The notes beneath the pieces were generated by a model. It worked only from the letters and a program-made list of their open reading frames with translations, was not told the origin of the DNA and did no database searches. Below are positions 424 through 62,658 of a stretch of DNA of 64,000 nucleotides, piece after piece. This DNA comes from a virus. Taxonomy: Duplodnaviria > Caudoviricetes. Within the stretch, counting starts at the first letter, position 1, and every line of letters starts with the position of its first letter. The stretch is from positions 32,001-96,000 of IMG/VR virus record IMGVR_UViG_3300028844_004840; one strand, given 5' to 3'. A program made the translations under genes and the position numbers.

Positions 424-487
424 AACACGGTTTATAAAAAATCCAGTTATACCGAGATTGGTTAATTACAAGAAGGATCATCCAAAT

Positions 488-789
488 ATGCCGATGTTTA
501 GAAAAACCCGTTGAAATTGAGGCCGTTCAGCTGACGGCAGACACGGTGCGCGAAGCCTACTAATTTATGCACGGTAGACAGGATATATCAGGACTGACCG
601 CTGAATATTGGTATTACTACTGCGTTTCCGTTTGCGATACGGGAATGAATGTCACGACCCTAGAAGATGGCCCAGACGCGCGCCAAGCATGTGGCTTCAA
701 TTGGAGATTGGATCATTAAAGGGATCAAGGGAGAGTTCTACCCTTGTAAGCCTGATATTTTCGAAGCCACGTACGAACCCTGTAAATAA
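488..789 (+). pseudogene. degraded phage protein of the KKPVEIEAVQ...[19 protein letters not shown] family
   Basis: SD AGAAGGA then ATG 488. Family motifs are spread over three frames (shifts near 506 and 684), with an in-frame TAA at 561-563. Confidence 0.8.
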
Positions 790-21930: not shown

Positions 21931-22448
21931 TGGCTTTCGTTTTCACAGTAGAGACAGGCGCAGGGACAGACCCTCTAGCCAACTCTTATGTCTCCGTTGT
22001 GGAAGCGGACGACATCATTACAACAAACATCCATGCAGCGCTTGAATGGGACATGTTGGCGGTAGAACAAAAAGAGAGATTACTGGTATGGGCATCTCGA
22101 TATCTCGATGAGCACACCACGTGGAAAGGCGAGAAAACCATTTCTACAAGTCCACGCCGCTGGCCCCGTTCAGGAGTATGCGACCGCGATAACACCCATA
22201 TTGGACCTAATGAAATCCCTGTCCAATTGAAAGTGGCCACCGCCGAAATGGCTCGATATTTAGTGGCGCAAGATCGTACTGTTGAACGCGATAGTGATGG
22301 ACTCGAACGTGTCAAAGCAGACGTTGTAGAAATCGAGTTCCTTCCGGGCTACCGCCTCCCATCTGTACCATCCAATATGCAGTATCTTGTACAAGGTCTT
22401 GGAGCCATTTTTGGTGGCGGATTTCGCTATGGAAAGGTGACACGTTAG
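21930..22448 (+). CDS. head-tail adaptor (DnaT-like family)
   Basis: F.VETG.G...ANSYVSV.EAD, WPR, IP.QLK.AT.E.A. Confidence 0.8.
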   Translation: MAFVFTVETGAGTDPLANSYVSVVEADDIITTNIHAALEWDMLAVEQKERLLVWASRYLDEHTTWKGEKTISTSPRRWPRSGVCDRDNTHIGPNEIPVQLKVATAEMARYLVAQDRTVERDSDGLERVKADVVEIEFLPGYRLPSVPSNMQYLVQGLGAIFGGGFRYGKVTR

Positions 22449-22852
22449 TGGGCTTTAAATCTCTTCTTGATAATCAGGTGCAAGGTCTAATGAAGACCCT
22501 AGGCCAAGCCGATGGCCTAGCACCGAATCATACGTACAATCAGGTCACCGCTAACGCGTATGACCCTGCAACAATGACTAATGCTGCAACCGAAGTTCCC
22601 TATACTGATGTTCCAATGGTTATGGCAAGATTTAAAATTGAAGAAATAGACGGGGAAAAAGTTGTCGCCACCGATTTAAAGGCAATCATTGCCTCTCTTG
22701 ATTTGGCTGTACAACCTTCTGAGCAAGATATTATTGTCATACAAACTGCAGGTACTGTAGCCGGACCTGTCGGAACCCGCTATCAGGTAGAAAAAGTAAT
22801 GGGAGTTCCGGGCAACAGTGTGCACATTCTTCAAATTAGAAAGACTACGTAA
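22448..22852 (+). CDS. head closure protein
   Basis: YDPAT motif, synteny, ends LQIRK. Confidence 0.7.
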   Translation: MGFKSLLDNQVQGLMKTLGQADGLAPNHTYNQVTANAYDPATMTNAATEVPYTDVPMVMARFKIEEIDGEKVVATDLKAIIASLDLAVQPSEQDIIVIQTAGTVAGPVGTRYQVEKVMGVPGNSVHILQIRKTT

Positions 22853-23337
22853 TGCCGCGCGGGAGTACTGTAATAAACGCTGTTGGCTTCAATAGTAGCC
22901 TTGATCGCACAATCACCCGCTTAGAAAAGAAGTGGATGAAACGTAACCAGACATTGGTTAACACGGCGATGAAGAAGTTGATAGCACGTACACCCGTACA
23001 TACAGGGCAGACCGTACGCAATTACATCGCCTCGAACGGTAACCCCGCCTCCGGCGGTGTTATAGCAGGTGAAGCTCCTGTTGAGCGCACAAACTCAAAG
23101 TCTCTAGGAACTGAGCGCCTGCGTGGAGGGGCGGAAGCACAGGCTTTAGCAACTCTCGCAACCGTGGATTTTTCAGATCCATACGATACATTCTTTATAA
23201 CTAACAGATCCCCCGCCGTAGGCGGGTTGGAGATTGGGGCATTACCCAAAGAGCCGTTCACGCCTAGATCCCCCGCAGGTATGTTTGGAATAACGCTGCA
23301 GGATATATCAGCTATCGCAGACCGAGGAATATTTTAA
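22852..23337 (+). CDS. neck protein (HK97 gp10-like)
   Basis: RTPVHTG motif; ITN....GLE; PAGM. Confidence 0.7.
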   Translation: MPRGSTVINAVGFNSSLDRTITRLEKKWMKRNQTLVNTAMKKLIARTPVHTGQTVRNYIASNGNPASGGVIAGEAPVERTNSKSLGTERLRGGAEAQALATLATVDFSDPYDTFFITNRSPAVGGLEIGALPKEPFTPRSPAGMFGITLQDISAIADRGIF

Positions 23338-55192: not shown

Positions 55193-56353
55193 CTATTTCG
55201 ATACGGTTACGGTTAATTTTTCAAAACCATTCCCTTGTTCTTTGTAGTCTTCTGGATCTAGTCCAGCCTCTTCCATGAGTGCCGTAGATAGTCGTTTTGC
55301 GCCAGCTTGTGCACTGTAAAAGACTTTCCAATTCTCACCCACCGCTCGACTTGTTCCAGCGTTTATCATTTCTTGTCGAATAGCCTCGTTAGCTTCCTTG
55401 ACATCTCTCTCGGTCTGCTTTTCCAATGCTTTCAATTTAGCTTGATTAGCGACAAGAATGTCCATGCGTGATATCATATCTGGATCCTGTCCGTCAATCT
55501 CTCCAGCTTTCAGAGGGTCACGTTTTTCAGGAACACGTCCAGTTGATACGATGCTGCATGCGTCTTTAAACTTACAGTACTTACAATCCCCGTCTAATTT
55601 TCCTTCTGGAGCAAACAGCGCAGGATCTTCCACTTCGAAAACCTTTTTATTACGCTCGCGTCCGATTTGGTATTCGCTCTCCGAGAACGGTACTAAAAAC
55701 GGGCGAATGTCATCATACCAAGAGGCATTCACGTATATGACAATAGCGTATTCGGGTTTGTACTCCGTAGTGTCGCGCACAAGTCCCATCTGCATCTGCG
55801 TCTGTCCGTGGTGAATGGCTTTAGCTTGTTTGATTTCAATTCTAGGGTCAAAAGACTTCATCTCTAAAACAACACTGTCGGCGTCTAAATCTCCTTCGAA
55901 ACCGTAGTATTCTAAAAAATCTTTGGGTAGTTTACCACCCATTTCTGGATCAATGGGAACGATTAATCCGTCCAGTGTTGCAGAATTACATCCATCACGA
56001 ATTGTCTCTTGATCGTCTCCTTCCATAATCAAATCAAGTCCACGACGGTTCAAACCTTGGCGGATTGCGGGGACGATAAGATAGTTCTCCATTATATCCC
56101 CACGACGCATCGCGCCCCAGTTCTCTTCGTGGTCTTTATCTACTTCGTGTCCAAATTTCTTTCCGTGCTTCCCGAACCAAGTCTTACGGATGCACCCAAA
56201 ACATTCGGAGGCACCTACCATTTCATTACGGTCATATTTCCACGTCTTCTGGTGGCTGGCGACGAATTCGTCAAAACAATCCTCAAACGTGAACCCGCCC
56301 GCAGGGATGTCCTTAGGGACACCTGTCGCCATGAGTTCTTCGTAATAGCTCAT
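55193..56353 (-). CDS. Cas4-like PD-(D/E)XK exonuclease with Fe-S cysteines
   Basis: GASE...C.RK, TLDG, LEMKS, Q.Q.QM, C..C.....C. Confidence 0.8.
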   Translation of the reverse strand: MSYYEELMATGVPKDIPAGGFTFEDCFDEFVASHQKTWKYDRNEMVGASECFGCIRKTWFGKHGKKFGHEVDKDHEENWGAMRRGDIMENYLIVPAIRQGLNRRGLDLIMEGDDQETIRDGCNSATLDGLIVPIDPEMGGKLPKDFLEYYGFEGDLDADSVVLEMKSFDPRIEIKQAKAIHHGQTQMQMGLVRDTTEYKPEYAIVIYVNASWYDDIRPFLVPFSESEYQIGRERNKKVFEVEDPALFAPEGKLDGDCKYCKFKDACSIVSTGRVPEKRDPLKAGEIDGQDPDMISRMDILVANQAKLKALEKQTERDVKEANEAIRQEMINAGTSRAVGENWKVFYSAQAGAKRLSTALMEEAGLDPEDYKEQGNGFEKLTVTVSK

Positions 56354-57268: not shown

Positions 57269-59524
57269 TTAGTGAGTAGCGGCCCACGTCATACCAATAG
57301 CGGATTCGGCGGTTACAGGGCAGTTGAAATTAAAATGCTCCCCTGCAAGAGGTGCCGCAGCTTCCATTATTTCAGCGGCGCGTTCTGCCAAGTCTTCGCG
57401 TACTGCGATCTGAATTTCGTCGTGAGACCACGAGCAGAAGAAATATTCTAAATTGGGGCCGTGATCCCACCCTTCTTCATAGAACATATCGTCAACAAGT
57501 AGACACCATTTCTTCGCAATTAGCGCACCGTCAGATTGCAGGCGAAGATTCAACGCAGAATGCTTTGAGCGTGCATATAATCGACGTCCGTCCAGTCCGC
57601 GAATGGTGTTAGAGTTCTTTCGCATCTCTTTGTGAATTTCACGGATCGCCTTCTGTAGTGAAGGCATCGCCGCCATGAGCTTTGATCGAAGTGTCTTACC
57701 TAAAGACTGCTGACGGGCTGCGGATGAGAATGGCTCAACAATAGAACCAAGCTTTCCGTCCCCTCCGCCATACATGGCGGCGTACAGGAGGCGCTTAGCC
57801 ACTGATCGTGTAATTCCCGCCAACTGGGCGTTTCGAGCGTGAATATCTCCGTTGAGTACTACGTCCACGATTTCTCCACCATCAAACGGGAACGTAAGAT
57901 TCCCTAGGCAACGAAATTCGATTCCCGAGAGATCGCATCCTACCAGCTTATAGCCTTTAGGTACGGTAAACAATTCGCGGCAATCGTATCCGTAATCCCC
58001 CGCGCGTCCGCGTGCCACGATAGACCACTCAGATTTATTCTCTTTCCACTTTGATGATACGATGATAGGCGCACTCCAGCTATTTACGTTCCCAGCGTTT
58101 TTAGAAAGAAACTCCTCTCCTTTTTCTTTCGCCATTTCAGGAGTTATTCCTTTGTCTTCGTTAGCTCCAAATTCCACCGCATTTACCCCCGGCACCTGTG
58201 AGATGTTTGGGGAAGAGTGTGTAGCACGTCCTGATACGGTTCCACCTACATTTACACGTCCGTGGATTCGTCCGTCACTGCGGAGTAATTTCAGCCATCC
58301 ATTTTTACCGTCAGATACTTGTCCTAGTCGTTTTTTGTAAAAGAATAATTCCGCCAATGTTGCAGCCAAAGGAACATCATCAGCAAGATCTCGTAGGATT
58401 TCATCATTAACTTTGGCTGCACCTTTTTCCGTGAAGTCTTGCGGTTCCCACCCATACAACGTTTTTAAACGATCTGTAATTTGAGGACGTGAATTGGGGT
58501 TGAATTCTTTCAATTCAATTTTCACTAGAGGAACATCCGCATAAACATCTGGCATCATCTTACGAAAGTCTCCACCAGCCGCAGCCTTTGCACGAGATTT
58601 ACTTCTGTCTATGTTGCGCTTGTAGGTATCAACGTTTCCCCATGTGCGGCGGGCGTGGTGTTCTCCATGTTCTGTTACAAATTCGTCCGTGTGGGCTTTT
58701 AACGGTCGATGCCATTTTCCGATATCCGCCGTAGCTTCCTCTGCGAGTGCATCGTATTGCGTCTGAAAATCTTGAGCCAGTTTGTCCGCTTTATTTTTGT
58801 CAAACACAAACCCATTACGCTCTTGCTTTACCATTAGATCATGTATTTGGTGCTCCATAATGGTAGCTTCGCGGGACCAATTGCAGCGTAGAATACTTGT
58901 CCACACCAACATGTTAACGTCAACATCGTTGATACAGTAGTCGTGCATATTCTGACTCCACGTGCCCCAGACGTAGTGGTGTAACTCCTCTGTAGTCGGT
59001 GCATCTAGTCCTTTTTCTTTGTGAATATCCTTTAGTTCGTTTTCACGGTCTTTCTTATAGTCGCCTTTATGCATCCCAAGACGTTGGCCCCAGCCTTCAA
59101 GGCCCTGTGTACCAATTAGTCGCCCAGCCAGTTTACCTGTTGACGCTAATCGAAAATCTTTTTCCTTTTGATCTGCAAAACACATGCGAACCATGACCAG
59201 TGTGTCAACAATACGGGCTTCGGGAACGAAATATGGATATATAAGTGCAATCGCGGGGATATCAAAGTCGATGATGTTGTGTCCGATGATTGTCTTCGCA
59301 TCCATCAGGATTTTTACACCTTCTTCGAGGTTATTTCCTTCATCGTTGTTAACAAATTCTATCGTCTTTTCAGTGTGAATATCTTTGATCACAAGGCAGT
59401 GAATTCGATCCATGCAGAACGGTGGTTCGACGTGTTCGGGTAAAAGCCCGTTGGTCTCGATATCGAATATTACTTCTTCGAATTCGCCCGTCACGATCTG
59501 GATTGGATTGAATGAGTAAGTCAT
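57269..59524 (-). CDS. polA: DNA polymerase, family A (T7-like) with 3'-5' exonuclease
   Basis: FDIETNGL, GHNI..FD, motif A DLSGIEFR, motif B AKRLLYAAMYG, motif C HDEIQ. Confidence 0.95.
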   Translation of the reverse strand: MTYSFNPIQIVTGEFEEVIFDIETNGLLPEHVEPPFCMDRIHCLVIKDIHTEKTIEFVNNDEGNNLEEGVKILMDAKTIIGHNIIDFDIPAIALIYPYFVPEARIVDTLVMVRMCFADQKEKDFRLASTGKLAGRLIGTQGLEGWGQRLGMHKGDYKKDRENELKDIHKEKGLDAPTTEELHHYVWGTWSQNMHDYCINDVDVNMLVWTSILRCNWSREATIMEHQIHDLMVKQERNGFVFDKNKADKLAQDFQTQYDALAEEATADIGKWHRPLKAHTDEFVTEHGEHHARRTWGNVDTYKRNIDRSKSRAKAAAGGDFRKMMPDVYADVPLVKIELKEFNPNSRPQITDRLKTLYGWEPQDFTEKGAAKVNDEILRDLADDVPLAATLAELFFYKKRLGQVSDGKNGWLKLLRSDGRIHGRVNVGGTVSGRATHSSPNISQVPGVNAVEFGANEDKGITPEMAKEKGEEFLSKNAGNVNSWSAPIIVSSKWKENKSEWSIVARGRAGDYGYDCRELFTVPKGYKLVGCDLSGIEFRCLGNLTFPFDGGEIVDVVLNGDIHARNAQLAGITRSVAKRLLYAAMYGGGDGKLGSIVEPFSSAARQQSLGKTLRSKLMAAMPSLQKAIREIHKEMRKNSNTIRGLDGRRLYARSKHSALNLRLQSDGALIAKKWCLLVDDMFYEEGWDHGPNLEYFFCSWSHDEIQIAVREDLAERAAEIMEAAAPLAGEHFNFNCPVTAESAIGMTWAATH

Positions 59525-59565
59525 TGTTTTAATGTCCACATTTCGATTAGTTGTTGAGTTAATAA

Positions 59566-59613
59566 CGTGACTCTGCCGTAACAGGTCGGGGGCTGATAAC
59601 AAACAGAGTCACG
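59566..59613 (-). promoter_or_regulatory. long hairpin in the polA leader
   Basis: CGTGACTCTG/CAGAGTCACG 10-bp stem, apical loop CCCCCGAC. Confidence 0.55.
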
Positions 59614-59648: not shown

Positions 59649-60191
59649 TTACGCCGCCGCTACATCCTCAGTAGTGGTTTCCTTGGAAGCCCATGACGGT
59701 GTCACGTCTTTCAGATACATCGCTGTACCGACTTCACGCACGTAGTCGATTGGAATTTTAGGATTATTCAAGTGTGTACGCCCTTTTAAAGAGCGTCGCC
59801 ACTTGGCGAACACAGGCATAAGTGCAGCCGATTCAACCAAGTAGGCTTCGACAAGGGTACTATCTTTATATGTAGCAAACACGAAACGGCGTGCCATAAA
59901 TCGGTCGATAACTGCGGTATTCAGGTGATGATTTGTTGAGAATCCTGAGTTCTTTTTGTTCAAATCGACCGTTTTAATTTCGTATTCGTTTCCAATGCGA
60001 TCCATGGCGTCTGGACCGCGACGTCCTGGGTGGATATCTAGACCAGTTGCTATCGCGATTTGCAGGACTTTTACGCCGTTGTCCGAGAATGGGTCCGCGA
60101 TGCCGTACGACTTGGCGAGGTGTTTCAGCTTGTCAGTGGCTTCGAGTGCGTCTTCCATTTCGGTCCAGCGCAGGTTCATATGTGTTGGCAT
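59649..60191 (-). CDS. R.PvuII-family restriction endonuclease (orphan)
   Basis: Colinear with R.PvuII: D.F.DNG.K.LQ, PGR.G.DA.D..G.EYE.K, GFST.HH.N, NNPKIP..YV.E.GT..Y. Confidence 0.88.
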   Translation of the reverse strand: MPTHMNLRWTEMEDALEATDKLKHLAKSYGIADPFSDNGVKVLQIAIATGLDIHPGRRGPDAMDRIGNEYEIKTVDLNKKNSGFSTNHHLNTAVIDRFMARRFVFATYKDSTLVEAYLVESAALMPVFAKWRRSLKGRTHLNNPKIPIDYVREVGTAMYLKDVTPSWASKETTTEDVAAA

Positions 60192-60194
60192 TGT

Positions 60195-60776
60195 TTACTC
60201 CTTGATTCCGAGTGCATCGCACGCGGCGAGGTATTCGTCACGCGCTTTCTTTGGTCGCCACGGATAAAAGTCCGAGTCGATTTCGTAAAGTGTCTGCTCG
60301 GCGCGGCCGGGGAACTGGTCCCACTCCCACGGCGAGGTTGTCGTAAGCTCTTCGGCTTCCGCATAAAGCAGTTGAATGTCTGCCCACTTGACGTAGGCTT
60401 CAATGCCATCGTCATATGGAACGCCGTAACGTGTGCGGAATGCTTGAGCACTTCCGTTTTCGAAACGGCGGTAGTCTGGTAAAAGTGATTTGAGGGGAGA
60501 GTTTACATCGCCCCATGCGTATTCAGGGGCGTCGTGGGTCAAAGCCCACTTGCGTACATACTCTGGTGCTCCTCGCTGTACCAAAAGACGCTCAACGTAC
60601 ACGCTATGTTGCGCAACTGAGTATATGTCGTCTTCGTATCTGTCTGAGAGATGTCCTGTGAATCGGCAGATACGGCTTAGCGCTCGTGCAATATCCGGTA
60701 GATAAAATTCAGATGGATCGTGAGGACCGAAGTGAAACTTACGTCCGGTCGCGGTTGTGATATACGGGTGTGTCAT
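60195..60776 (-). CDS. HD-domain 5'-deoxynucleotidase (YfbR/YfdR-like)
   Basis: LS.ICRF.GH, YSVAQHS, HDA.E...GD..SPLK. Confidence 0.85.
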   Translation of the reverse strand: MTHPYITTATGRKFHFGPHDPSEFYLPDIARALSRICRFTGHLSDRYEDDIYSVAQHSVYVERLLVQRGAPEYVRKWALTHDAPEYAWGDVNSPLKSLLPDYRRFENGSAQAFRTRYGVPYDDGIEAYVKWADIQLLYAEAEELTTTSPWEWDQFPGRAEQTLYEIDSDFYPWRPKKARDEYLAACDALGIKE

Positions 60777-60864: not shown

Positions 60865-62658
60865 TCAATCCAGTGCCTCTTTAATTACGCCCATTTTTTC
60901 TAACAAGGCTATCGCCATTCGGCTTTCAATGGACCCGTCTACCACAAGGTGCTGTACAAGTACAGCATTTAATTGTCCGTGTCGCCATGCACGATCTTCG
61001 GCTTGCTCAATCATCGCAGGAACCCAATCTAGTTCCGCAAATACAACAAAGCGCGCGCGCGTCAATGTAAAACCAACACCCATAGCAATGATGTTTCCAA
61101 GTATCACATCGAGATGCCCGTCTTGGAAATCGTCCACGATGTCCTGGCGCTTGTCTGGATGGACGTCTCCGGTAATCACACCGACGCGAATTCCTTTCTT
61201 TTCAAGGCGCTCTTTGATCGATTTGATTACCGACTTGTGGTATCCAAAACAAATTACAGGCTCGCCGCACTGGACCAGTTTCTCGACGTGCTCTACCACC
61301 AATCCGACCTTGGCTAGTGCCACTTCTTCACGTGCCGAGCTGATTTCGGTGAACATGATTTGTTCTGGTGCGGAGAGCGTTTTTACCGCCTCGCCCCAAT
61401 CAGGTTCTTCTCCTGATTGTTCTGCCAAAGCTGCTGCCAATTTGTCACAAAGGTTGTCGATGTATCGGAACAGATTTGAAGTATCGATTCCCAGTACTGA
61501 TTTCTCGTAGGCTTCCAACGCGTTCTCGACGCGGTTTTGCTCTTTCTTGACAGGTGCTTCCAGTTTGTCTTTTGGAAGTAGAACCATTTCGCGGTTTTTG
61601 TCGGGCAGCTCTTTCAGCACCGATTGCTTATCGCGACGTACCATGAAACGCTCACGCAGGAGACGGTTAAGTTCTTCAAGATTTGACGCGCCGGACGAAT
61701 CAAGGCCCCCGAACGATTCCTGTGCGTCACAGTACGTTAGTGCGTATTTTCTCCAGTTCAGCCCTAGTCCCTCAGGGTCGCACGCTCTAATAATCGTCCA
61801 AAGTTCTGATGGTTTTGAAAGAATTGGCGTCCCAGTTAGGTACAGGTGGTGTGCAGCCTCGATAGGCGTGAATACTTTTTTCGATATTCCTTTCTTTCGA
61901 CTTGCCTTACGCTCTCCGCCAAAAACACACATGGATCGTAGTGACGTTGCCGTTTTTAACAGGTGGGCTTCGTCGCAGATAACAAGGTCCCATTCGACTT
62001 TTTTGATCTGATCATCGAACGCTTCAAGCATGTCGTAGTTGACGATACACACATCAGCGGCAGGCCAGAAGTGTTCCGTACGCGATTTTGATATAGGCTT
62101 ATCGCGGTGATCCCGCGCTCGGCCTCCGTTAGGCATGAACACCGGATCATTGTGCAATATTGACGCAGTTTGTCCCACAGATAACCCGTGAACGTCCCAG
62201 CGCTCCCACTCACGCTTCCAATTGCGTTTCAATGACGCAGGGCAGATGATAAGGATTTTATTCAATTTCTTGGTGTTGTGTAATCCGATAGCCTGAATCG
62301 TTTTACCCAGCCCCGGAGGGTCGGCTATCAGAGTTCTGGAGCGCTTGGAGGCGTACTCTATCCCAGCGCGTTGGAAGGGCATGTAAGCAAGCCCCTCAGG
62401 GGCAGGGAATTCTGCCACGGTGTCTTCTGCCCAAGATGCGTCAATCGCCGCCTGACGGATCGCTAGGGCGTTGTCAAGGTACTCTTTAGCTGCACCAATC
62501 GCCCAATCCTTTACAAGTAGAGCTTTTTCTTCATCAGCAGTCCACCAATGCTTTCGACGGAAGTCGTACTTCCACTTAGCACGTTTCAGTGCAAAACGAT
62601 CTTTCTCGTATTTACGTGTGGTTACAAACTTACCATCAATACGGTCAAATTGGGTCAT
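60865..62658 (-). CDS. SNF2-family helicase
   Basis: ADPPGLGKT, CPASL, DEAH, LTGTP, G.TLT.A, QAEDR..R.GQ. Confidence 0.92.
   Translation of the reverse strand: MTQFDRIDGKFVTTRKYEKDRFALKRAKWKYDFRRKHWWTADEEKALLVKDWAIGAAKEYLDNALAIRQAAIDASWAEDTVAEFPAPEGLAYMPFQRAGIEYASKRSRTLIADPPGLGKTIQAIGLHNTKKLNKILIICPASLKRNWKREWERWDVHGLSVGQTASILHNDPVFMPNGGRARDHRDKPISKSRTEHFWPAADVCIVNYDMLEAFDDQIKKVEWDLVICDEAHLLKTATSLRSMCVFGGERKASRKKGISKKVFTPIEAAHHLYLTGTPILSKPSELWTIIRACDPEGLGLNWRKYALTYCDAQESFGGLDSSGASNLEELNRLLRERFMVRRDKQSVLKELPDKNREMVLLPKDKLEAPVKKEQNRVENALEAYEKSVLGIDTSNLFRYIDNLCDKLAAALAEQSGEEPDWGEAVKTLSAPEQIMFTEISSAREEVALAKVGLVVEHVEKLVQCGEPVICFGYHKSVIKSIKERLEKKGIRVGVITGDVHPDKRQDIVDDFQDGHLDVILGNIIAMGVGFTLTRARFVVFAELDWVPAMIEQAEDRAWRHGQLNAVLVQHLVVDGSIESRMAIALLEKMGVIKEALD

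What the first reader, a model, noticed from the sequence alone, without database searches (positions are those of the whole stretch)
59649..60191. Orphan PvuII-like restriction enzyme in the replication operon, with CAGCTG almost absent from the window
Seen: the ORF aligns end to end with R.PvuII as I recall it. The catalytic D...EYExK (D58/E68/K70 equivalents) and the recognition elements DNG, FST.HH and NNPK are kept; the E55 and H83 equivalents differ (R, N). No methyltransferase or C protein is in the window. The gene lies between an HD nucleotidase and polA. Scanning AGCT contexts by eye, I found CAGCTG once in 64 kb (528-533, inside a decayed pseudogene), while CAGCT[ACT] and [AGT]AGCTG together occur dozens of times; uniform expectation is about 15. 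Inference: the phage may use a restriction enzyme offensively, cutting host or competitor DNA and feeding its nucleotide-salvage enzymes, and protect itself by purging sites instead of methylating. Caveat: GAGCTC also seemed absent, so avoidance could reflect host R-M pressure.
Basis: partly seen in the sequence, partly recalled or inferred. Interest (0 to 1): 0.85.

Follow-up and report, generated by a model that had tools for sequence, protein, structure and literature searches.

The report
Solitary PvuII-like nuclease in roseophages
A marine phage carries a PvuII-type DNA-cutting enzyme without the usual protective methylase, probably to cut up host DNA, but its own lack of cut sites is part of a general purge also seen in phages that lack the enzyme.

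Summary
The ORF at 59649-60191 (-) is a real PvuII-family endonuclease (Pfam 1.7e-33; fold TM 0.87-0.91 to PvuII). The catalytic D..ExK and the DNA-reading residues are kept. It is a conserved, vertically inherited gene of a clade of 140-150 kb roseophages (DSS3phi8, MD18, RcXuper and 84 metagenomic protein clusters). It evolves as slowly as polA (dN/dS 0.05-0.09). It has no PvuII-type methylase or C protein, whereas 77 of 80 bacterial homologues have the methylase next door. Every clade member has lost the E55 equivalent, which is invariant in 85 of 85 methylase-linked homologues.

CAGCTG occurs once in the whole 139.6 kb genome (expected 24-37) and never in five relatives. However, about ten other palindromes are purged equally. 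CAGCTG is also absent from RpAliso, a nested relative that lost the gene, and from two unrelated phages of the same host that lack the gene. Site purging is therefore not explained by the enzyme; it more likely made a methylase-free nuclease affordable. The host megaplasmid has one site per 2 kb.

The gene sits 3 nt after a T5-Dmp-like dNMP phosphatase. Host-DNA demolition is the best reading (about 0.5). The phage's own genome has an unlinked C5 methylase outside the window.

The parts
59649..60191 (-). PvuII-family endonuclease gene, 180 aa, without methylase or C protein
   Evidence: ORF. Pfam PF09225 at 1.7e-33. PDB PvuII at 2.4e-31. AF2 model pLDDT 89.6. Foldseek top hits are PvuII, TM 0.87-0.91. 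PADLOC REase_II at 1.5e-33.
59973..60011 (-). Catalytic motif D61 ... E71-I-K73 (PvuII D58, E68, K70)
   Evidence: Alignment and codons. D is kept in 98/98 clade rows, E and K in 97/98.
60018..60020 (-). R58, at the position of PvuII E55. This position is never E in the phage clade.
   Evidence: E in 80/80 bacterial and 5/5 viral methylase-linked homologues. In the 98 clade rows the five commonest residues are T 38, M 24, Q 17, L 10 and R 4; no E among them.
59652..59714 (-). Clade-specific C-terminal tail (LKDVxPxW...), beyond the end of PvuII
   Evidence: K161, D162, V163, P165 and W167 are 90% or more conserved in A1. Median tail is 19 aa in the clade and 7 aa in bacterial homologues. pLDDT is 77 for residues 161-170 and 52 for 171-180.
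60195..60776 (-). HD-type dNMP phosphatase (T5 Dmp-like). Its stop codon lies 3 nt before the nuclease start.
   Evidence: PHROG 318 at 3.4e-51. Relatives annotate it as HD superfamily hydrolase. In locus L044 it shares a reading frame with the nuclease, with no stop between them.
57269..59602 (-). Family A DNA polymerase, immediately downstream
   Evidence: PF00476 at 3.5e-25. 61-66% identical to the polA of the relatives.
60865..62658 (-). SNF2-type helicase, upstream in the same gene run
   Evidence: PF00176 at 2.2e-30 and PF00271.
55193..56353 (-). RecE-like exonuclease in the same gene run. Candidate processor of cut DNA (inferred).
   Evidence: PHROG 434 at 1.4e-24. 61% identical to the RcXuper 'exonuclease'.
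528..533 (.). The only CAGCTG in the window and in the whole 139.6 kb genome
   Evidence: No ORF of 40 aa or more covers it.

Best explanation
The ORF encodes a working, selectively maintained PvuII-family homodimeric endonuclease. It was captured once, without its methylase and C protein, and has since been inherited vertically as a near-core gene of the replication/nucleotide module of a DSS3phi8-like roseophage clade.

It most likely still reads CAGCTG and makes double-strand cuts in any DNA that carries that site. The main target would be the host chromosome, which has about one site per 2 kb. With the RecE-like exonuclease and the adjoining T5-Dmp-like dNMP phosphatase, it would form a host-DNA demolition line. 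The phage meanwhile makes its own nucleotides with RNR and ThyX.

The phage DNA escapes because it has no CAGCTG (its own genome has one). That absence is not the work of this gene. It is part of a broad purge of GC-rich 6-bp palindromes common to roseophages, and the purge is what made a methylase-free restriction enzyme affordable.

Shown: family, fold, conserved residues, solitary status in the genomes searched, vertical descent, purifying selection and the site counts.
Inferred: cleavage activity, CAGCTG specificity, the host as target, and the link to the neighbouring enzymes.
For: Family and fold.

Residues: the catalytic D, E, K and the recognition D34, H84, H85, N140, N141, K143 equivalents are kept in 97-98 of 98 clade rows. 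These rows overlap in part, because A1 clusters include MAL1 and RcXuper.

Homodimer model: score 0.47, best control 0.11. Contacts agree in at least 87% across runs and partner pLDDT is at least 81. The mark was reached by 20/30 solved pairs and 1/23 single chains. The interface uses residues 2-50. A PvuII dimer is solved, so the pass may reflect that likeness.

Selection: dN/dS is 0.05-0.09, against 0.06-0.07 for polA. Identity between RcXuper and the window's phage is 58.9%, against 61.7% for polA and 37% for HD.

Descent: the clade forms one side of a branch with support 100. The nuclease tree is congruent with the polA tree.

Solitary status:
- My M.PvuII HMM hit 77/80 bacterial loci and 5/5 viral loci with distant homologues.
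- It hit 0/12 clade loci and 0/5 complete genomes.
- PF01555 gave 0/5.
- Pfam confirmed the M and C genes in the sampled bacterial loci.

Targets: there are 238 CAGCTG in the 491,611 bp host megaplasmid and 0 in DSS3P8.

Context: a dNMP phosphatase lies 3 nt upstream. The T5 precedent of a nuclease plus Dmp with de novo synthesis comes from passages of bioRxiv 10.64898/2026.04.02.716235. RNR, ThyX and dUTPase are in the window.
Against: - The E55 equivalent is invariant in 85/85 methylase-linked homologues and is lost in every clade member. Catalysis may therefore be weakened or changed.
- One CAGCTG remains in the phage's own genome.
- RpAliso lost the gene yet is a viable isolate, so the gene is dispensable at least there.
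- N35 is A in 34 of 98 clade rows.
- No activity, specificity or expression data exist.
- The dNMP kinase found in 3 of 3 relatives searched with RcXuper's own was not found in the window's phage by tblastn. A 185-aa ORF gives only a partial PHROG 139 hit.
- The phage's own genome has a C5 methylase of unknown specificity.
Confidence: 0.5

Rival explanations
1. One reading: the phage purged CAGCTG from its genome because it carries this enzyme, so site loss replaces methylation as self-protection.
For: Every carrier has 0 sites. This holds for MAL1, RcXuper, MD18 and DSS3P8 and for 12 metagenomic clade loci (0 observed, about 53 expected in sum). The window's phage has 1. Bacteria that hold the complete R-M system keep 1721-2486 sites. 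PvuII-family genes were found in only 1 of 401 sampled Alphaproteobacteria, and that one was the centre genome itself. Host PvuII-family pressure therefore looks rare.
Against: RpAliso has 0 sites (expected 66-80) without the gene. It is nested in the clade. Its dS to its sister RcXuper is 0.74-0.99. It has 365 neutral one-step routes to a site, 271 synonymous and 94 non-coding. On these numbers, 0 sites is likely only if the gene was lost within the last 0.025 substitutions per site or so. The unrelated phages DSS3phi2 and DSS3-P1 lack the gene and also have 0 sites. Five other palindromes are absent from all five clade genomes.
Confidence: 0.1
2. It is a weapon against competitors, not against the host. 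It cuts co-infecting or superinfecting phages and plasmids that carry CAGCTG. Clade members are immune to each other because none has the site.
For: The gene sits among middle replication genes and not in an obvious early takeover block. Several carriers and the non-carrier RpAliso share one host strain. All phages of that host examined here lack the site.
Against: If all local phages already lack the site, the weapon has few targets. No data exist on timing. The neighbouring dNMP phosphatase fits host DNA breakdown better.
Confidence: 0.15
3. It is a changed enzyme. After the loss of E55 it is a weak cutter, a nickase or a site-specific binder. It serves phage replication or recombination, perhaps through a partner that docks on the conserved C-terminal tail.
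For: E55 is lost across the clade, and the residues at that position vary (T, M, Q, L, R). A conserved tail, absent from PvuII, is present. The gene is placed tightly between HD and polA and is as conserved as polA.
Against: D58, E68 and K70 equivalents are kept in 97-98 of 98 rows, which a mere binder would not need. The phage genomes have no CAGCTG on which to act. H83N also occurs in 4/5 viral and 6/80 bacterial methylase-linked homologues.
Confidence: 0.15
4. In this genome only, it is half of a separated R-M pair. The C5 methylase 69 kb away protects CAGCTG, including the single site.
For: A C5 methylase is present at genome 22049-22966. One CAGCTG is tolerated. From recall: 5mC within AGCT blocks PvuII.
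Against: The methylase is absent from all four relatives, three of which carry the nuclease. It belongs to a very large family of small phage and marine C5 methylases, none named for a specificity. It is not of the PvuII N4 type. The site is purged anyway.
Confidence: 0.05
5. It is a selfish, homing-type free-standing nuclease gene that inserts between conserved genes.
For: The gene shows clean presence or absence between HD and polA: RcXuper has it and RpAliso lacks it.
Against: The nuclease tree is congruent with the polA tree. Twelve of 13 clade polA rows come from carriers (for L136 only through its polA being identical to that of carrier L044); RpAliso alone lacks it. dN/dS is as low as for polA. 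RpAliso, the gene-less relative, offers no CAGCTG target.
Confidence: 0.03

Closest known systems
R.PvuII of the PvuII type IIP restriction-modification system (solved structures 1pvi, 1f0o, 1ni0 and others)
   Same: Same Pfam family and same fold (TM 0.87-0.91). Same catalytic D..ExK. Same DNA-reading residues at the D34, H84, H85, N140, N141 and K143 positions. Similar size. The predicted dimer forms through the N-terminal helices.
   Different: No M.PvuII-type methylase and no C protein. The E55 equivalent is lost in the whole clade, N replaces H83, and F replaces Y94 in this copy. A conserved tail of about 20 aa is added. It is carried as a vertically inherited phage gene. Identity to PvuII is only 36-38%.
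Phage T5 pre-early host-DNA degradation (A1 nuclease function plus the Dmp dNMP phosphatase)
   Same: A DNA-degrading function stands next to a dNMP phosphatase, in a phage that has its own nucleotide synthesis genes.
   Different: T5 A1 is a predicted metallophosphatase, not a restriction enzyme (passages). Here the nuclease would be site-specific, and self-protection would rest on the absence of sites. The functional link is inferred from adjacency only.
Solitary restriction endonuclease genes in phage genomes (Oliveira, Touchon and Rocha 2014, PMC4176335)
   Same: A REase homologue stands without a methylase in a phage. That survey counted 12 in 831 phage genomes, 7 of them in virulent phages (passages).
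   Different: That survey gives counts, not functions. Here the gene is a conserved clade-wide gene under strong purifying selection with a defined active-site change. The survey's supplementary lists could not be seen and may or may not include this family.
Restriction-site (palindrome) avoidance in phage genomes
   Same: Many 6-bp palindromes are purged to 0-1 copies.
   Different: The avoidance is usually read as escape from host enzymes. Here one avoided site coincides with an enzyme the phage itself makes. The coincidence is not specific.

Membership tests
PvuII endonuclease family (Pfam PF09225) | Sequence match to the family profile above the curated cut-off | tested here: met
   116.3 bits against a cut-off of 25, E 1.7e-33, covering profile positions 5-155 of 155.
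PvuII endonuclease family (Pfam PF09225) | PvuII fold | tested here: met
   AF2 model pLDDT 89.6. Foldseek ranks 1-11 are all PvuII chains, E down to 5.8e-17, target-normalised TM 0.83-0.91 except 0.45 for the double-length single-chain 3ksk.
PvuII endonuclease family (Pfam PF09225) | Catalytic D58 ... E68-x-K70 | tested here: met
   D61, E71 and K73. Kept in 97-98 of 98 clade rows. The residue roles are recalled.
PvuII endonuclease family (Pfam PF09225) | Auxiliary acidic residue E55, invariant in methylase-linked members | tested here: not met
   R58 in this copy. E in 80/80 bacterial and 5/5 viral R-M-linked homologues, and none in the clade. Its chemical role is recalled, not checked; no paper was found.
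PvuII endonuclease family (Pfam PF09225) | CAGCTG-reading residues (D34, H84, H85, N140, N141, K143) | tested here: met
   All are present here and in 97-98 of 98 clade rows. The title of PDB entry 3pvi names D34 in recognition. The other roles are recalled.
PvuII endonuclease family (Pfam PF09225) | Homodimer | tested here: inconclusive
   Model score 0.47 against a best control of 0.11. The mark was reached by 20/30 solved pairs and 1/23 single chains. Contacts agree in at least 87% and pLDDT is at least 81. The pass may come from likeness to the solved PvuII dimers.
PvuII endonuclease family (Pfam PF09225) | Cleaves CAG^CTG | not testable with these tools
   Needs the purified protein.
Type II restriction-modification system (PvuII type: M, C, R) | Cognate N4-cytosine methylase (PF01555) next to R | tested here: not met
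   PF01555 gave 0 matches in the phage's own genome and in four relatives. My M.PvuII HMM hit 0/12 clade loci and 0/5 genomes, against 77/80 bacterial and 5/5 viral R-M loci.
Type II restriction-modification system (PvuII type: M, C, R) | C (controller) HTH protein upstream of R | tested here: not met
   The upstream gene is the HD phosphatase. The bacterial loci sampled have an HTH_3 ORF or a C-R fusion. Not every small ORF of the window was scanned.
Free-standing homing endonuclease | Patchy distribution and a gene tree at odds with the flanking genes | tested here: not met
   The trees are congruent and the gene is missing from only 1 of 13 clade rows.
T5-like host-DNA degradation module | Dmp-type dNMP phosphatase beside the DNA-degrading function | tested here: met
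   PHROG 318 at 3.4e-51, with its stop codon 3 nt before the nuclease start.
T5-like host-DNA degradation module | Host DNA is degraded early in infection | not testable with these tools
   Needs infection experiments with DSS3P8, RcXuper or MD18.

The most novel reading that the evidence does not exclude
The methylase-free PvuII variant of this abundant roseophage clade is itself a selective agent in the sea. By cutting any CAGCTG-bearing DNA in a shared host cell, it would keep CAGCTG out of other roseophages that lack the gene (RpAliso, DSS3phi2, DSS3-P1). On this reading, phage-borne restriction shapes the sequence composition of competing phages. The clade-wide loss of E55 together with the conserved C-terminal tail would mark a re-engineered, partner-dependent active site.
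Probability: 0.08. Interest if true: 0.8.

Novelty: new variant of a known kind. Interest (0 to 1): 0.5.

Why it matters
Restriction enzymes are textbook host defences, lethal without their methylase. Here a whole, environmentally widespread phage clade keeps one as a slowly evolving gene with no methylase. Its own DNA has none of the sites and its host's DNA has one every 2 kb.

If the enzyme is active, it is a clean natural case of a virus turning a restriction enzyme against the cell. Self-protection would rest on genome composition alone. This is directly testable, because three carriers (DSS3P8, RcXuper, MD18) and a natural null (RpAliso) are isolates with laboratory hosts.

The clade-wide loss of a residue that is invariant in all methylase-linked homologues gives enzymologists a defined natural variant of a well-studied enzyme.

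The result also corrects the attractive story that the phage purged the site because of the enzyme. The purge is general among roseophages.

Tried and rejected
**Purging as a consequence of the gene.** Rejected as the main cause; see rival 1.

**Other solitary restriction enzymes matching the other universally purged palindromes (CGATCG, GCCGGC, GGCGCC, CGGCCG, CTCGAG).** I ran PADLOC on 141 ORFs of 100 aa or more from the phage's own genome. Among the 25 rows displayed (of 127 matched families), only the two REase_II models hit by the PvuII-like ORF appeared. Weaker hits, with E above about 3e-26, were not displayed, so this is a partial negative.

**Fused forms.** None of 316-2000 aa was found (weak evidence). 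One metagenomic locus, L044, has HD and the nuclease in one frame without a stop.

**Specificity of the C5 methylase.** PDB similarity covers only the catalytic half. The names of 120 listed homologues give no specificity.

**Role of PvuII E55.** Four literature searches found nothing usable.

**Expression.** No RNA holder was listed.

**Promoter and terminator scan.** Counts were not above shuffles: 10 against 8.1, and 5 against 7.2.

**Near-identical DNA in the phage collection.** None. A single-protein scan of IMG/VR found nothing; the alignment-based scan did.

**Relatives without the gene in IMG/VR.** None beyond RpAliso could be shown. All close polA loci with upstream sequence carry it.

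**Papers.** The MD18 and DSS3phi8 papers contain none of the words restriction, PvuII, palindrom-, methyl- or endonuclease (term search only). No paper in the held library links these phages to PvuII. The GenBank records already name the gene as a restriction enzyme.

Full report
**What is there.** The window is bases 32001-96000 of a single 139,562 bp viral contig with terminal repeats and 47.6% G+C. The ORF at 59649-60191 on the minus strand encodes 180 aa. It matches Pfam Endonuc-PvuII at E 1.7e-33 over profile positions 5-155 of 155. It matches every solved PvuII chain at E about 1e-30. An AlphaFold model built on 84 homologues has mean pLDDT 89.6. Its eleven best Foldseek hits are all PvuII structures, with target-normalised TM 0.83-0.91 (0.45 for the double-length single-chain 3ksk) and rmsd 1.6-3.4 A.

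From the alignment and the codon table:
- D61, E71 and K73 stand at PvuII D58, E68 and K70.
- D37-N38 stand at D34-N35.
- H88-H89 stand at H84-H85.
- N142, N143 and K145 stand at N140, N141 and K143.
- R58 stands at E55, N87 at H83 and F98 at Y94.

The roles of these residues are recalled from the PvuII literature. Only the D34 role and the two-calcium active site are echoed by PDB titles. A two-copy model gave a dimer through the N-terminal helices: score 0.47, best control 0.11. The mark was reached by 20 of 30 solved pairs and 1 of 23 single chains. Contacts agree in at least 87% and pLDDT is at least 81. PvuII dimers are solved, so this pass may only reflect that likeness.

**Gene neighbourhood.** The gene lies in a long run of minus-strand genes:
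- an SNF2 helicase;
- an HD protein that Pfam misses but PHROGs calls a dNMP phosphatase (phrog_318, 3.4e-51);
- the nuclease;
- family A polymerase, a DnaQ-like exonuclease and a RecE-like exonuclease;
- a RecD-like helicase, ThyX, a ribonucleotide reductase-like ORF and dUTPase.

The nuclease ATG comes 3 nt after the TAA of the HD gene and has AAGGAG 8 nt upstream. Consensus promoter and terminator scans were not above chance.

**Relatives.** By tblastn, five phage records hold the protein at 58-61% identity: Phaeobacter phage MD18, DSS3_MAL1, Rhodobacter phage RcXuper, Roseobacter phage DSS3P8 and Ruegeria phage vB_RpoS-V10. In the four records whose annotation I fetched (all but V10), the gene lies between the HD gene and polA. 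Three of the five records already annotate it as a restriction enzyme. The large protein collection holds 84 clusters at 51-88% identity (one at 44%). All are 123-193 aa and many lie on contigs of 80-160 kb. IMG/VR gave 12 further clade loci. PHROGs files the family as phrog_28628, function unknown.

**Descent and selection.** On a tree with 80 bacterial and 5 other viral homologues, the phage clade is one side of a branch with support 100 (FastTree). The nuclease tree of ten clade members has the same pairs and the same main group as their polA tree. The gene is as constrained as the polymerase. dN/dS is 0.09, 0.07 and 0.05 in three unsaturated pairs, against 0.06 and 0.07 for polA. Identity between RcXuper and the window's phage is 58.9%, against 61.7% for polA, 63.8% for the helicase and 37% for HD.

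**Solitary status.** Bacterial homologues are numerous: at least 494 tblastn-confirmed loci among GTDB species genomes, the best 80 at 36-47% identity. Pfam showed the classical arrangement in the seven loci I sampled. Each has a divergent PF01555 methylase. Both small upstream ORFs that I tested are HTH_3 C proteins, and one locus has a C-R fusion.

An HMM I built from six of those methylases gave these hits:

| Set searched | Loci or genomes with a hit |
|---|---|
| Bacterial loci | 77 of 80 |
| Viral contigs with distant homologues | 5 of 5 |
| Clade loci | 0 of 12 |
| Complete genomes (the window's phage, MAL1, MD18, RcXuper, RpAliso) | 0 of 5 |

The three bacterial misses are one short contig and two loci with a different 574-aa PF01555 methylase. 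Family searches over those five complete genomes gave no PF01555, PF02086 or PF05869. PF02384 gave only a marginal match in the phage's own genome (18.6 bits; 25.2 with its neighbours, cut-off 20.4) and a sub-threshold one in MD18.

PF00145 hit once, in the phage's own genome at 22049-22966, outside the window. This is a 305-aa C5 methylase from a very large family of small phage and marine methylases with no stated specificity. The nuclease therefore has no conserved methylase partner. For this one genome, a trans-acting protector cannot be excluded.

**A clade signature in the active site.** In the joint alignment:
- The E55 position is E in 80 of 80 bacterial and 5 of 5 viral methylase-linked homologues.
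- It is not E in the 98 clade rows; the five commonest residues there are T 38, M 24, Q 17, L 10 and R 4. Those rows overlap in part with each other.
- N at H83 is nearly universal in the clade (95 of 98), but it also occurs in 4 of 5 viral and 6 of 80 bacterial R-M-linked members, so it is compatible with a working system.
- N35 is A in 34 clade rows.

The clade also has a conserved tail, LKDVxPxW, beyond the PvuII C-terminus. I recall E55 as the auxiliary acidic residue near the metal sites, like EcoRV E45 or BamHI E77. I could not confirm this from the held papers.

**Site counts.** CAGCTG occurs once in the window and once in the genome. The expectation is 24-37 for the genome.

| Genome | CAGCTG observed | Expected |
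|---|---|---|
| MAL1, MD18, RcXuper | 0 | 61-105 |
| DSS3P8 | 0 | not computed |
| 12 clade loci | 0 | about 53 in sum |
| R. pomeroyi DSS-3 megaplasmid (491,611 bp) | 238 | not computed for the whole record |
| Three bacteria with the full R-M system | 1721-2486 | not computed |

**The depletion is not specific.** In the phage's own genome 10 of 64 six-base palindromes fall to 10% of expectation or less. In the relatives it is 9-20 of 45-50, and in 200 kb of host DNA 0 of 50. CGATCG, GCCGGC, GGCGCC, CGGCCG and CTCGAG are at 0-2 copies in all five clade genomes.

**The decisive comparisons.**

First, Ruegeria phage RpAliso. Its polA is 64-76% identical to the others, and its HD gene abuts polA directly with no nuclease gene. 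No homologue lies anywhere in the genome. It is nested in the clade as sister of RcXuper with support 97, so it lost the gene. It has 0 CAGCTG against 66-80 expected.

Its dS to RcXuper is 0.74-0.99. It holds 1096 words one change away from CAGCTG, of which 271 changes are synonymous and 94 non-coding. That gives roughly 122 new sites per unit of neutral divergence. Zero sites is then likely only if the loss fell within about the last 0.025 substitutions per site, or if another force keeps the site out. Over the same split other palindromes went from 0 to near expectation or back: GGTACC 0 against 47, TCCGGA 42 against 0.

Second, two unrelated phages of the same host strain. These are the N4-like DSS3phi2 (74.6 kb) and the Casjensviridae phage DSS3-P1 (59.6 kb). 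Both have no PvuII homologue. Both have 0 CAGCTG, against 44.3 and 13.8 expected. They purge 19 of 34 and 25 of 33 palindromes.

The absence of CAGCTG is therefore a property of roseophages at large, not a consequence of this gene. What imposes it is open. PvuII-family genes themselves are rare in the host class: 1 of 401 sampled Alphaproteobacteria, and that one was the centre genome. Unrelated isoschizomers were not searched for.

**Most likely mechanism.** This is a once-captured restriction enzyme that a palindrome-poor phage lineage could keep without a methylase. The conserved catalytic and recognition residues, the strength of selection and the abundance of sites in host DNA point to cleavage of non-phage DNA at CAGCTG.

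The adjoining Dmp-like phosphatase recalls phage T5. There, host DNA breakdown is coupled to Dmp, which turns dNMPs into nucleosides while the phage synthesises nucleotides de novo (passages of bioRxiv 10.64898/2026.04.02.716235). In one metagenomic relative the two ORFs even share a frame without a stop. However, the relatives also encode a dNMP kinase.

Points against: E55 is lost, one site survives in the phage's own genome, RpAliso lives without the gene, and nothing is known about activity or timing. I put this reading at about 0.5. The rivals are competitor exclusion, a changed enzyme with a replication role, self-driven purging, a separated R-M pair in this genome, and a homing element.

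**Novelty.** Solitary restriction enzyme genes in phages have been counted: 12 in 831 genomes (passages of PMC4176335). The public records already name this gene. The papers on DSS3phi8 and MD18 do not mention it (term searches). I found no paper on it.

What is new here is the picture of a clade-wide, methylase-free, E55-less PvuII variant with a conserved tail, inherited like a replication gene. The analysis also shows that the matching site avoidance is general and not gene-driven. I rate it a new variant of a known kind, of moderate interest, and readily testable in three cultured phage-host pairs.

Noticed in passing
Whole genomes: the window's phage, MAL1, MD18, RcXuper, RpAliso, DSS3phi2, DSS3-P1 (loci L005-L036, L220-L226): Six-base palindromes are purged to an extreme degree in roseophages of three unrelated lineages: 9-25 palindromes at 10% of expectation or less per genome, against 0 of 50 in host DNA. 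The purged set differs between close relatives (for example CCGCGG 0 against 76-89, GGTACC 0 against 47), which suggests fast turnover under changing restriction pressure.
   Followed up: partly
G000:C1:22049-23579 (locus L037:4049-5579), outside the window: A 305-aa C5 cytosine methylase is followed by a SAM-methyltransferase-fold ORF (Methyltransf_25) and an RlaP-like nucleotidyltransferase. The C5 methylase was not found in the four sequenced relatives (PF00145 search only); its specificity is unknown.
   Followed up: partly
L044:4710-5930: In one IMG/VR relative the HD phosphatase and the PvuII-like ORF lie in one reading frame with no stop codon between them. This is a possible natural fusion. 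No fused protein of 316 aa or more was found in the protein collection.
   Followed up: partly
L137:10001-12865 and L041:5852-8590: The polA of two metagenomic clade members is about 170-215 aa longer (955 and 913 aa against about 740), with no stop codons. This suggests an in-frame insert such as an intein or an inserted domain.
   Followed up: no
window 480-570: The stretch holding the only CAGCTG starts with an ATG frame that stops after 8 codons. It reads on in another frame to a further stop, as a broken small gene would. Homology was not tested.
   Followed up: no
Whole contig: This phage has 47.6% G+C, whereas its four sequenced relatives have 58-62%. Only 7-9% of its DNA aligns to theirs by blastn. 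This points to a different, lower-GC host lineage. The class I RNR subunits, dNMP kinase, dCMP deaminase and small endonuclease of RcXuper gave no tblastn hit here.
   Followed up: partly
Own genome, ORFs of 100 aa or more (alignment A3): PADLOC models AbiEi (1.5e-27), PDC-M16A (2e-39) and mad2 (two ORFs, 1.6e-06) matched unnamed ORFs of the phage. The tool does not say which members matched.
   Followed up: no
L212 (RcXuper 50001-100000): The relative's record annotates two tyrosine integrases, a proteasome beta subunit, NAD salvage genes (NMN adenylyltransferase/ADP-ribose pyrophosphatase, nicotinamide phosphoribosyltransferase), two RNA ligases and two polynucleotide kinases. This is an unusually rich repair and metabolism set.
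   Followed up: no
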